DNA of 8,879 nucleotides from a virus. Lineage: Duplodnaviria; Heunggongvirae; Uroviricota; Caudoviricetes. Numbering within the stretch: the first letter of the stretch is position 1; each line of letters starts with the position of its first letter. Positions 3,003 through 3,326 of the stretch are shown piece after piece. The position numbers were made by a program, and so were the translations under genes. Under the pieces are notes generated by a model. That model was not told where the DNA came from. It made no database searches and saw only the letters and a list, made by a program, of their open reading frames with translations. The DNA lies in the IMG/VR virus record IMGVR_UViG_2663763232_000017, positions 1 to 8,879 of that record, one strand, 5' to 3'.

Positions 3003-3326
3003 ATGGAAGCATTAGTAGTAGAGCGAAGCGAGGATGGCTACTGGACGCACCCAGAATACGCCAACCTGTTTGGGGATAGAGAGGCAATTTCAGCTGATGA
3101 GTTCAGATCTTTCTGCAAGCAGCATGGCATTGAATCATCAATTGTTGAAATGGAAAACGACAACAATCAAACGGTAATTGACGCGTATTTTGAAGATGGG
3201 AATCCAAACATCAGTGGATGGGAGCCAAGCATGCCAGATGGAGAAGGATGGTTTGTCGGTTCGATTCACGATACAGAAGACGGTCCGATCTGCGTTTGGT
3301 TCAGGAATGTAGATAAGGCCGCATAG
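3003..3326 (+). CDS. Hypothetical strongly acidic protein (107 aa; about 23 Asp/Glu vs 5 Arg/Lys)
   Basis: Listed ORF with GAGGTG RBS. Composition counted from the translation. Sits where lambda carries ral/ea genes. Confidence 0.6.
   Translation: MEALVVERSEDGYWTHPEYANLFGDREAISADEFRSFCKQHGIESSIVEMENDNNQTVIDAYFEDGNPNISGWEPSMPDGEGWFVGSIHDTEDGPICVWFRNVDKAA

What the first reader, a model, noticed from the sequence alone, without database searches (positions are those of the whole stretch)
3003..3326. Strongly acidic 107-aa early protein: candidate DNA-mimic or anti-restriction factor
The translation has about 23 Asp/Glu and 5 Arg/Lys (net charge near -18) over 107 residues. Small, very acidic early phage proteins are often DNA mimics that inhibit restriction or other DNA-binding defences (Ocr/ArdA-like logic). 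It is the second gene after N, so it would be made immediately on induction or infection.
Basis: inference. Interest (0 to 1): 0.6.

Follow-up and report, generated by a model that had tools for sequence, protein, structure and literature searches.

The report
Acidic early phage protein, function untested
This is a real, conserved gene for a very acidic 107-residue protein of unknown function that phages, conjugative plasmids and integrative elements all carry; it is a reasonable but untested candidate inhibitor of host nucleases or restriction, and it is not related to the known DNA mimics Ocr or ArdA.

The parts
2350..2712 (+). Antiterminator N gene (context: start of the early-left operon)
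   Evidence: Pfam N_peptide E 8.1e-19; PHROG 271, N-like
2713..2940 (+). orf75, a small basic protein of unknown function and the first gene after N
   Evidence: PHROG 5305, E 4.8e-38, unknown function. Net charge +6. Present upstream of the cassette in only some related loci.
2932..2978 (+). Strong stem-loop plus U-tract spanning the orf75 stop codon; tL1-like terminator candidate upstream of the cassette
   Evidence: Terminator-like site at 2937-2967. RNA fold -19.9 kcal/mol, z -6.2, with 0 of 200 shuffles as stable.
2971..3371 (+). Mobile cassette: RBS, orf107 and a 3' hairpin, exchanged as a unit among lambdoid prophages
   Evidence: In blastn against 33 related loci, the left border falls at 2970/2971 in 24 and the right border at 3356 or 3371 in 26. 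Flanking genes vary.
2993..2998 (+). Shine-Dalgarno sequence GAGGTG, 4 nt upstream of the ATG
   Evidence: Read directly from the sequence
3003..3326 (+). orf107: acidic 107-aa protein, a stand-alone copy of the PHROG 1372 domain
   Evidence: PHROG 1372, E 5.6e-44. 99% identical to mEp213 gp45. AF2 pLDDT 86.9. dN/dS 0.089.
3315..3344 (+). GC-rich hairpin AAGGCCGCATAGTCGGCCTT followed by TATTTTTGG. The stop codon lies in the loop. This is the terminator-like 3' end of the cassette.
   Evidence: RNA fold -11 kcal/mol, z -2.1. It lies inside the cassette borders.

Best explanation
orf107 encodes a stand-alone copy of a widespread, unnamed, strongly acidic alpha/beta domain of about 100 residues (PHROG 1372). 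Mobile elements carry this domain as an accessory 'establishment' gene. In this prophage it is a self-contained cassette in the N-dependent early-left operon. Shown here: the gene is real, the family is large, acidity is conserved, the cassette is mobile, the fusions and MGE contexts exist, and no known fold matches. Inferred: the protein is a non-enzymatic binding protein that uses its negative surface, and perhaps the invariant S-I-H-D-T-E-D-G hairpin, to occupy the nucleic-acid-binding site of a nuclease-type host defence. That would protect incoming or replicating element DNA. Restriction-modification is the leading candidate target because of the repeated link with Lar domains. The target itself is unknown.
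For: (1) Charge is a family trait. Across 185 domain instances the net charge averages -14.2 (sd 3.4). Many variable positions are 30-50% D/E, and K/R is almost absent apart from three conserved Arg.
(2) Position. Alleles at least 94% identical always lie directly after N, or one small gene later. This is the slot that holds ral and sieB in lambda. More distant relatives lie between repressor and integrase in other temperate phages, in nin regions, or near genome ends of other phages.
(3) It behaves as an accessory gene. The cassette has sharp borders and at least 7 different downstream neighbours. The full cassette is present in only 41 of 5,426 complete E. coli genomes.
(4) Fusions. Lar_restr_allev is fused in both orders (P0070, P0167, P0184). 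The P0184-type fusion is a common P. aeruginosa protein that NCBI names 'Lar family restriction alleviation protein', seen on 841 and 362 contigs for two members. In P. paraeruginosa a weak Lar-like gene directly follows the homologue. A Tad2-like fusion scores E 1.5e-22. There are also fusions to Rv2179c-like exonucleases and to DHH/DHHA1.
(5) Nuclease neighbourhood on plasmids. 2,442 plasmid records carry a homologue, 2,130 of them conjugative. In IncFII(K) plasmids its start overlaps the stop of a DUF2726 gene, and it is followed by a PLD/Nuc-like gene. DUF2726 belongs to the PD-(D/E)XK, Vsr-like superfamily (PMC3424549).
(6) No match to any enzyme family or catalytic fold was found.
Against: No sequence or structural similarity to any known anti-restriction protein or DNA mimic was found. 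The strongest conservation is in Trp, Phe, His, Gly and Pro. Only about 8 acidic columns are conserved. Plasmid homologues carry only -4 to -11 net charge, so charge may not be the essential feature. Many fusion partners are simply homologues of genes that lie next to stand-alone members, so fusions may reflect neighbourhood rather than shared function. Most partners have no known function. On IncF plasmids the gene lies at the distal end of, or inside, the tra operon. It is not in the leading region where known anti-restriction genes sit. One locus has both ral and the cassette (L023). No experimental data were found in the searchable literature.
Confidence: 0.4

Rival explanations
1. The protein is an Ocr/ArdA-style DNA mimic whose carboxylates imitate the phosphate backbone and that blocks type I (or other) restriction enzymes directly.
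For: D+E is 21.5%, pI is 4.1 and acidity is conserved. The gene sits in an early-operon slot equivalent to ral. The Lar link points to type I systems. Established knowledge that Rac Lar alleviates EcoKI restriction comes from my own knowledge, not from a tool.
Confidence: 0.15
2. The protein regulates or inhibits the element's own nucleases or recombination enzymes. It would act as an immunity-like or chaperone partner, for example for the DUF2726 or PLD nucleases on plasmids and for early-left exonucleases in phages, and not as a counter-defence factor.
For: It is translationally coupled to DUF2726 and flanked by a PLD nuclease in IncFII(K) plasmids. It is fused to, or lies near, Rv2179c-like 3'-5' exonucleases and DHH/DHHA1. 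It resides in the recombination operon that carries Erf and Abc2 in this window.
Against: No nuclease partner is conserved next to the phage copies. Upstream and downstream neighbours are non-homologous and variable. DUF2726 and the homologue do not co-diverge: 86% vs 62% identity in one plasmid pair and 52% vs 82% in another. In L093 another gene separates them.
Confidence: 0.2
3. The protein is a host-takeover factor unrelated to defence. It would bind a host DNA- or RNA-binding hub such as a nucleoid protein, RNA polymerase, SSB or a protease, or it would serve as a generic targeting or adaptor module for variable partner domains.
For: About 45% of family representatives carry extra domains at either end, with at least 45 unrelated partner types. 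One protein has a tandem duplication of the domain (P0037). Conserved aromatic and His residues suggest a specific protein-binding site.
Against: Nothing points to a particular hub. The only functionally annotated partners are anti-defence or nuclease domains.
Confidence: 0.15
4. The protein is a prophage-encoded defence or superinfection-exclusion component, as sieB and rex are in the same part of lambda.
For: The slot between N and cIII holds sieB in lambda.
Against: There are no PADLOC hits. The predicted protein is soluble with no membrane segment. The gene lies in the N-dependent lytic operon and has no promoter of its own: only 32 nt lie upstream within the cassette, and no promoter-like site was found there.
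Confidence: 0.05

Closest known systems
PHROG 1372 / mEp213 gp45 (YP_007112388), D6 orf96, PY54 ORF48, phi1026b gp46, IncFII(K) WP_004152383
   Same: Same family. HMM E 5.6e-44, 99% identity to mEp213 gp45, and shared motifs V-x-R-x-x-x-G-x-W-x-H-P and G-W-F-x-x-S-I-H-D-T-E-D-G-P-x-C-x-W-x-R.
   Different: None of these has an assigned function. Some carry extra domains. The plasmid copies are less acidic.
T7 Ocr (gp0.3), a DNA-mimic inhibitor of type I R-M
   Same: Small, very acidic, phage-encoded early protein. In several phages the homologue lies near a genome end, as gene 0.3 does. Ocr's role as a DNA mimic is described in PMC12629846.
   Different: No sequence match. The predicted fold is alpha/beta with two beta-hairpins, not a helical banana-shaped dimer, and there is no structural hit.
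ArdA (anti-restriction protein of conjugative plasmids and transposons)
   Same: Acidic and carried by conjugative elements as well as phages.
   Different: No Pfam ArdA hit and no structural hit. The plasmid homologues are not in the leading region in the plasmids examined.
Lambda Ral / Rac Lar (restriction alleviation)
   Same: Same operon slot as ral. The family domain is repeatedly fused to, or adjacent to, Lar-type zinc-ribbon domains.
   Different: No homology to Ral or Lar. orf107 has no Cys-rich zinc ribbon. Ral co-occurs with the cassette in one locus.
Acidic proteinaceous nuclease inhibitors (barstar, colicin immunity proteins, Anabaena NuiA, T7 gp5.9, lambda Gam) - from my own knowledge
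   Same: Small acidic proteins that plug the nucleic-acid-binding site of a nuclease. The plasmid homologue is translationally coupled to a PD-(D/E)XK-fold gene.
   Different: No fold or sequence similarity detected. The phage copies have no cognate nuclease gene beside them.

Membership tests
PHROG 1372 (unnamed acidic MGE domain) | Significant full-length match to the family HMM | tested here: met
   E 5.6e-44 over residues 1-106. 1,009 representatives at E<=1e-3 with a profile built from the family.
PHROG 1372 (unnamed acidic MGE domain) | Conserved motifs R8, G12, W14, H16, P17, W73, P75, P78, G80, G82-W83-F84 and S87-I88-H89-D90-T91-E92-D93-G94-P95 | tested here: met
   All are present in orf107. 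Conservation is 78-99% over 180 aligned domains.
Ocr (T7 gp0.3) | Sequence homology to the Ocr family | tested here: not met
   No Pfam family at E<=0.1. No PDB sequence hit with a single sequence or with profiles.
Ocr (T7 gp0.3) | All-helical elongated dimer that mimics bent B-DNA | tested here: not met
Ocr (T7 gp0.3) | Inhibits type I R-M enzymes | not testable with these tools
   Needs restriction-alleviation assays or binding assays.
ArdA | Sequence or fold homology to ArdA | tested here: not met
   No Pfam hit. No structural hit.
Ral / Lar restriction alleviation | Homology to lambda Ral or to the Lar zinc-ribbon domain (PF14354) | tested here: not met
   orf107 has no Pfam hit. Lambda Ral finds only a separate gene, in L023. 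Lar domains occur as fusion partners in relatives, not within the shared domain.
DNA-mimic proteins (functional class) | High D+E content and low pI | tested here: met
   21.5% D+E, pI 4.09, net -17. Family mean is -14.2.
DNA-mimic proteins (functional class) | Surface carboxylates arranged like DNA phosphates, and binding in the DNA site of a target protein | not testable with these tools
Only secondary structure and pLDDT were returned.
Known anti-phage defence proteins (PADLOC) | Match to a defence-system HMM | tested here: not met
   0 families at E<=0.1.

The most novel reading that the evidence does not exclude
The PHROG 1372 domain founds a new fold class of inhibitors of nuclease-type immunity. 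Phages, IncF conjugative plasmids (including pKpQIL-type Klebsiella plasmids) and Pseudomonas ICEs would all share it. It would act alone, or as the partner of Lar zinc-ribbons, to disarm restriction or PD-(D/E)XK nucleases when the element establishes itself.
Probability: 0.25. Interest if true: 0.7.

Novelty: new member of a known kind. Interest (0 to 1): 0.5.

Why it matters
If the family is an anti-nuclease or anti-restriction factor, it would add a new, structurally distinct inhibitor class. That class would be common in three kinds of mobile element: about 1,000 sequence clusters, 3.4% of PLSDB plasmids (mostly clinically important conjugative Klebsiella IncF plasmids), and a common P. 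aeruginosa protein now annotated only through its Lar half. It would also give a function to the variable slot just after N in lambdoid phages. It would be a practical tool for improving DNA delivery and phage host range. If it is not, the gene is one more conserved phage early gene of unknown function.

Tried and rejected
- Family libraries: Pfam, NCBIfam and PADLOC scans of orf107 gave nothing.
- PDB sequence searches with the single sequence and with two profiles gave only chance-level hits, E>=0.12.
- Literature searches by phage name, accession numbers, locus tags and peptide motifs found nothing on this protein, including the supplements of one accessory-gene screen.
- A conserved two-gene module with the small upstream gene (orf75) was rejected. 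Upstream neighbours in D6, Rac-SA53, PY54, phi1026b, Ymer and SopranoGao are unrelated.
- Mutual exclusivity with lambda ral is not strict. L023 has both.
- A DUF2726 partner in phage loci was looked for and none was found. The link is specific to the plasmid lineage.
- A His/Cys metal site (H16, H89, C97) is my inference only. The hairpin register would put H89 and C97 on opposite faces of the sheet, so it is not favoured. It could not be checked without coordinates.
One P. paraeruginosa locus was obtained instead.

Full report
**Setting**

The window is the immunity and early-left region of a lambdoid prophage related to HK97, mEp213 and CUS-3.
- cII and cro lie on the minus strand.
- The plus strand carries cI (1246-1947), a pL-like promoter match (2074-2102) and N (2350-2712; Pfam N_peptide, E 8e-19).
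- After N come orf75, the target orf107, orf156, a 322-aa TolA-like protein, cIII/kil-sized ORFs, Erf, an SSB-sized ORF, Abc2 and ead/Ea22-like genes.

Net charge is -17 and pI is 4.09.
- It is the most acidic ORF in the window. Only 3 of 164 neighbour-gene clusters from related loci are as acidic per residue.
- A GAGGTG Shine-Dalgarno sequence lies 4 nt upstream of the ATG.
- It is the second gene after N.
- It is under purifying selection. dN/dS is 0.089 against a 94%-identical allele. For alleles 71-84% identical, dS is saturated while dN is only 0.09-0.19.
- One correction concerns timing. A strong stem-loop with a U-tract spans the orf75 stop codon (2932-2978, -19.9 kcal/mol, z -6.2). The gene is therefore probably N-dependent delayed-early rather than immediate.

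**What the protein is**

- It is 99% identical to mEp213 gp45, annotated hypothetical. It matches PHROG 1372, function unknown, at E 5.6e-44.
- Pfam, NCBIfam and PADLOC return nothing.
- A profile search of 1.84 billion representatives finds 1,009 clusters at E<=1e-3 and 501 at E<=1e-10.
- In the phage collection, 83 records from Gamma- and Betaproteobacterial hosts carry it, almost all as 'hypothetical protein'. These include D6, PY54, phi1026b/phiE125 and phages of Pectobacterium, Erwinia, Klebsiella, Vibrio, Ralstonia and Pseudomonas.
- No source gives these proteins a functional name, among either the closest relatives or the top 120 of a wider profile search.
- Acidity is a family property. 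Over 185 domain instances the net charge averages -14.2 (sd 3.4). Many variable columns are 30-50% D/E, and K/R is nearly absent apart from three conserved Arg.
- The most conserved residues are not carboxylates. They are R8, G12, W14, H16, P17, W73, P75, P78, G80, G82-W83-F84 and S87-I88-H89-D90-T91-E92-D93-G94-P95, followed by C97, W99 and R101.

**Structure**

- AlphaFold2 with a 29-sequence alignment gives a confident model (pLDDT 86.9, pTM 0.71). It has an N-terminal beta-hairpin, three helices, a central strand, a long ordered Pro/Gly/Trp loop and a C-terminal beta-hairpin with the HDTEDG turn at its tip.
- BFVD returns only uncharacterised homologues.
- PDB sequence and profile searches give chance-level hits only.
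- The protein is therefore not a member of the Ocr or ArdA families or of any solved DNA-mimic fold.

**Genetic anatomy**

- Among 33 related IMG/VR and phage loci, nucleotide similarity to the window starts at 2970/2971 in 24 and ends at 3356 or 3371 in 26.
- This defines a 386-401 bp cassette made of RBS, ORF and a GC hairpin with a T-tract (3315-3344). The stop codon sits in the hairpin loop.
- The cassette always lies directly after N, or after one small gene (orf75 or an 88-aa C2H2 protein).
- The downstream neighbour varies among at least seven unrelated genes, including lambda Ea10.
- This is the slot that holds ral and sieB in lambda. Ral was found in only one cassette-bearing locus, L023, so the two are not strictly exclusive.
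- The full cassette occurs in 41 of 5,426 complete E. coli genomes.
- A paralogous group of 103-aa proteins, about 46% identical, sits in the nin region of Rac-like and Stx prophages.
- In other temperate phages, relatives lie between repressor and integrase.
- No neighbour is conserved across the phage loci.

**Fusions**

- About 45% of the best representatives carry an extra N- or C-terminal region, with at least 45 unrelated partner types.
- Annotated partners are:
  - Lar_restr_allev, three times and in both orders, each above the Pfam cut-off;
  - Tad2-like, E 1.5e-22;
  - Rv2179c-like 3'-5' exonuclease, twice;
  - DHH/DHHA1;
  - crAss001_48, KTSC and others.
- The domain-Lar fusion is not an artefact. 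It is a common P. aeruginosa protein that NCBI names 'Lar family restriction alleviation protein', and two of its members are seen on 841 and 362 contigs.
- In P. paraeruginosa the homologue is followed directly by a weak Lar-like gene. The locus also has ParA, DUF2786/DUF7168, DnaB and NA37 genes. I take it to be a pKLC102/PAPI-1-type ICE, which is my inference.
- One caution applies. Several partner domains are homologues of genes that lie next to stand-alone members. Fusion may therefore partly reflect neighbourhood rather than shared function.

**Plasmids (unexpected)**

- 2,442 of 72,556 PLSDB records carry a homologue. Of these, 2,130 are conjugative and 1,896 are from Klebsiella.
- In IncFII(K) plasmids the gene order is traI, traX, finO, PIN7, a membrane protein, DUF2726, the homologue, a PLD/Nuc-like gene, then repA. 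The homologue's ATG overlaps the DUF2726 stop codon.
- DUF2726 belongs to the PD-(D/E)XK nuclease superfamily, near Vsr (PMC3424549).
- In an Enterobacter IncF plasmid the homologue lies between traW and traU.
- These positions are not in the leading region.
- The plasmid homologues are much less acidic, at -4 to -11, and they do not co-diverge with DUF2726.

**Interpretation**

- The data best fit a non-enzymatic, acidic binding protein that mobile elements use against a nuclease-type barrier. The recurrent Lar link makes restriction the leading candidate target. I put confidence at about 0.4.
- The narrow claim of an Ocr-like DNA mimic of type I R-M is possible but unsupported in its specifics (about 0.15).
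- Rivals are:
  - a regulator or immunity partner of the element's own nucleases (about 0.2);
  - a non-defence host-takeover or adaptor module (about 0.15);
  - an exclusion function (about 0.05).
- The family is catalogued but uncharacterised, and no paper on it was found in the searchable library. If the best reading is right, it is a new member, with a new fold, of the known class of acidic anti-nuclease proteins.
- It is a worthwhile experimental candidate rather than a surprise, so I score interest at 0.5.

Noticed in passing
window 2987-3005 and 3374-3392: The same 19-nt junction, TTATTTGAGGTGAnATATG (RBS plus start codon), precedes both orf107 and orf156. mEp213 lacks orf156 and goes straight from the orf107 cassette to the 322-aa gene. 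929 E. coli genomes match part of the 401-bp cassette but only 41 match most of it. This may mean the junctions are shared boundary sequences for module exchange; I did not check which part of the cassette the partial hits cover.
   Followed up: partly
window 2932-2978, 3315-3344, 3963-3984: Each small module between N and the 322-aa gene ends in a terminator-like hairpin with a T-tract (-19.9, -11 and -14.5 kcal/mol). The region would be a chain of terminators that need N antitermination to be read through.
   Followed up: partly
L089 8345-9300 (NZ_KU295132); also L090, L095, L096: IncFII(K) / pKpQIL-type conjugative plasmids carry a conserved block after finO: PIN7, a membrane protein, DUF2726 (PD-(D/E)XK), the orf107 homologue and a PLD/Nuc-like gene. 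The homologue is translationally coupled to DUF2726 (ATGA overlap). 2,442 PLSDB plasmids hold a homologue.
   Followed up: partly
L109 7001-8448 (P. paraeruginosa NZ_NIQD01000003); proteins P0184, P0277, P0278: The abundant P. aeruginosa 'Lar family restriction alleviation protein' (about 260 aa) has the orf107-type domain as its unannotated N-terminal half. It lies in a ParA, DnaB and NA37 region that looks like a pKLC102/PAPI-1-type ICE.
   Followed up: partly
window 3390-3860 (orf156) and 2713-2940 (orf75): Both flanking genes are also conserved phage proteins of unknown function (PHROG 1636, E 5e-112; PHROG 5305, E 5e-38) with no Pfam match. orf75 starts at the N stop codon, which suggests translational coupling.
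   Followed up: no
window 4004-4972: A 322-aa protein with an extremely charged Glu/Lys/Arg/Ala-rich central coiled-coil-like region. It is annotated 'TolA' in one mEp213 record and noted in another as similar to Sf6 gene 33. It matches PHROGs 1376 and 21365, function unknown.
   Followed up: no
L011, L012, L014, L015, L017, L020, L023, L031, L032, L039 (about 4500-5400): Lambda Ea10 (122 aa, itself acidic, function unknown) lies downstream of the cassette in these loci (directly in about half, 1-3 genes further in the rest), so the cassette replaces the ral/sieB segment of lambda there.
   Followed up: partly
L092 5001-5258 (Salmonella plasmid NZ_CP017721): A partial homologue (query residues 25-103) overlaps an annotated hha gene next to a thermonuclease-family gene downstream of finO. 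It may be a remnant or a mis-annotation.
   Followed up: no
window 6999-7580: A second markedly acidic early protein (193 aa, net -12, pI 4.5); the corresponding region of mEp213 (locus coordinates about 6296-6940) is annotated ead/Ea22-like. Some orf107-family relatives carry coiled-coil N-terminal extensions that resemble this type.
   Followed up: no
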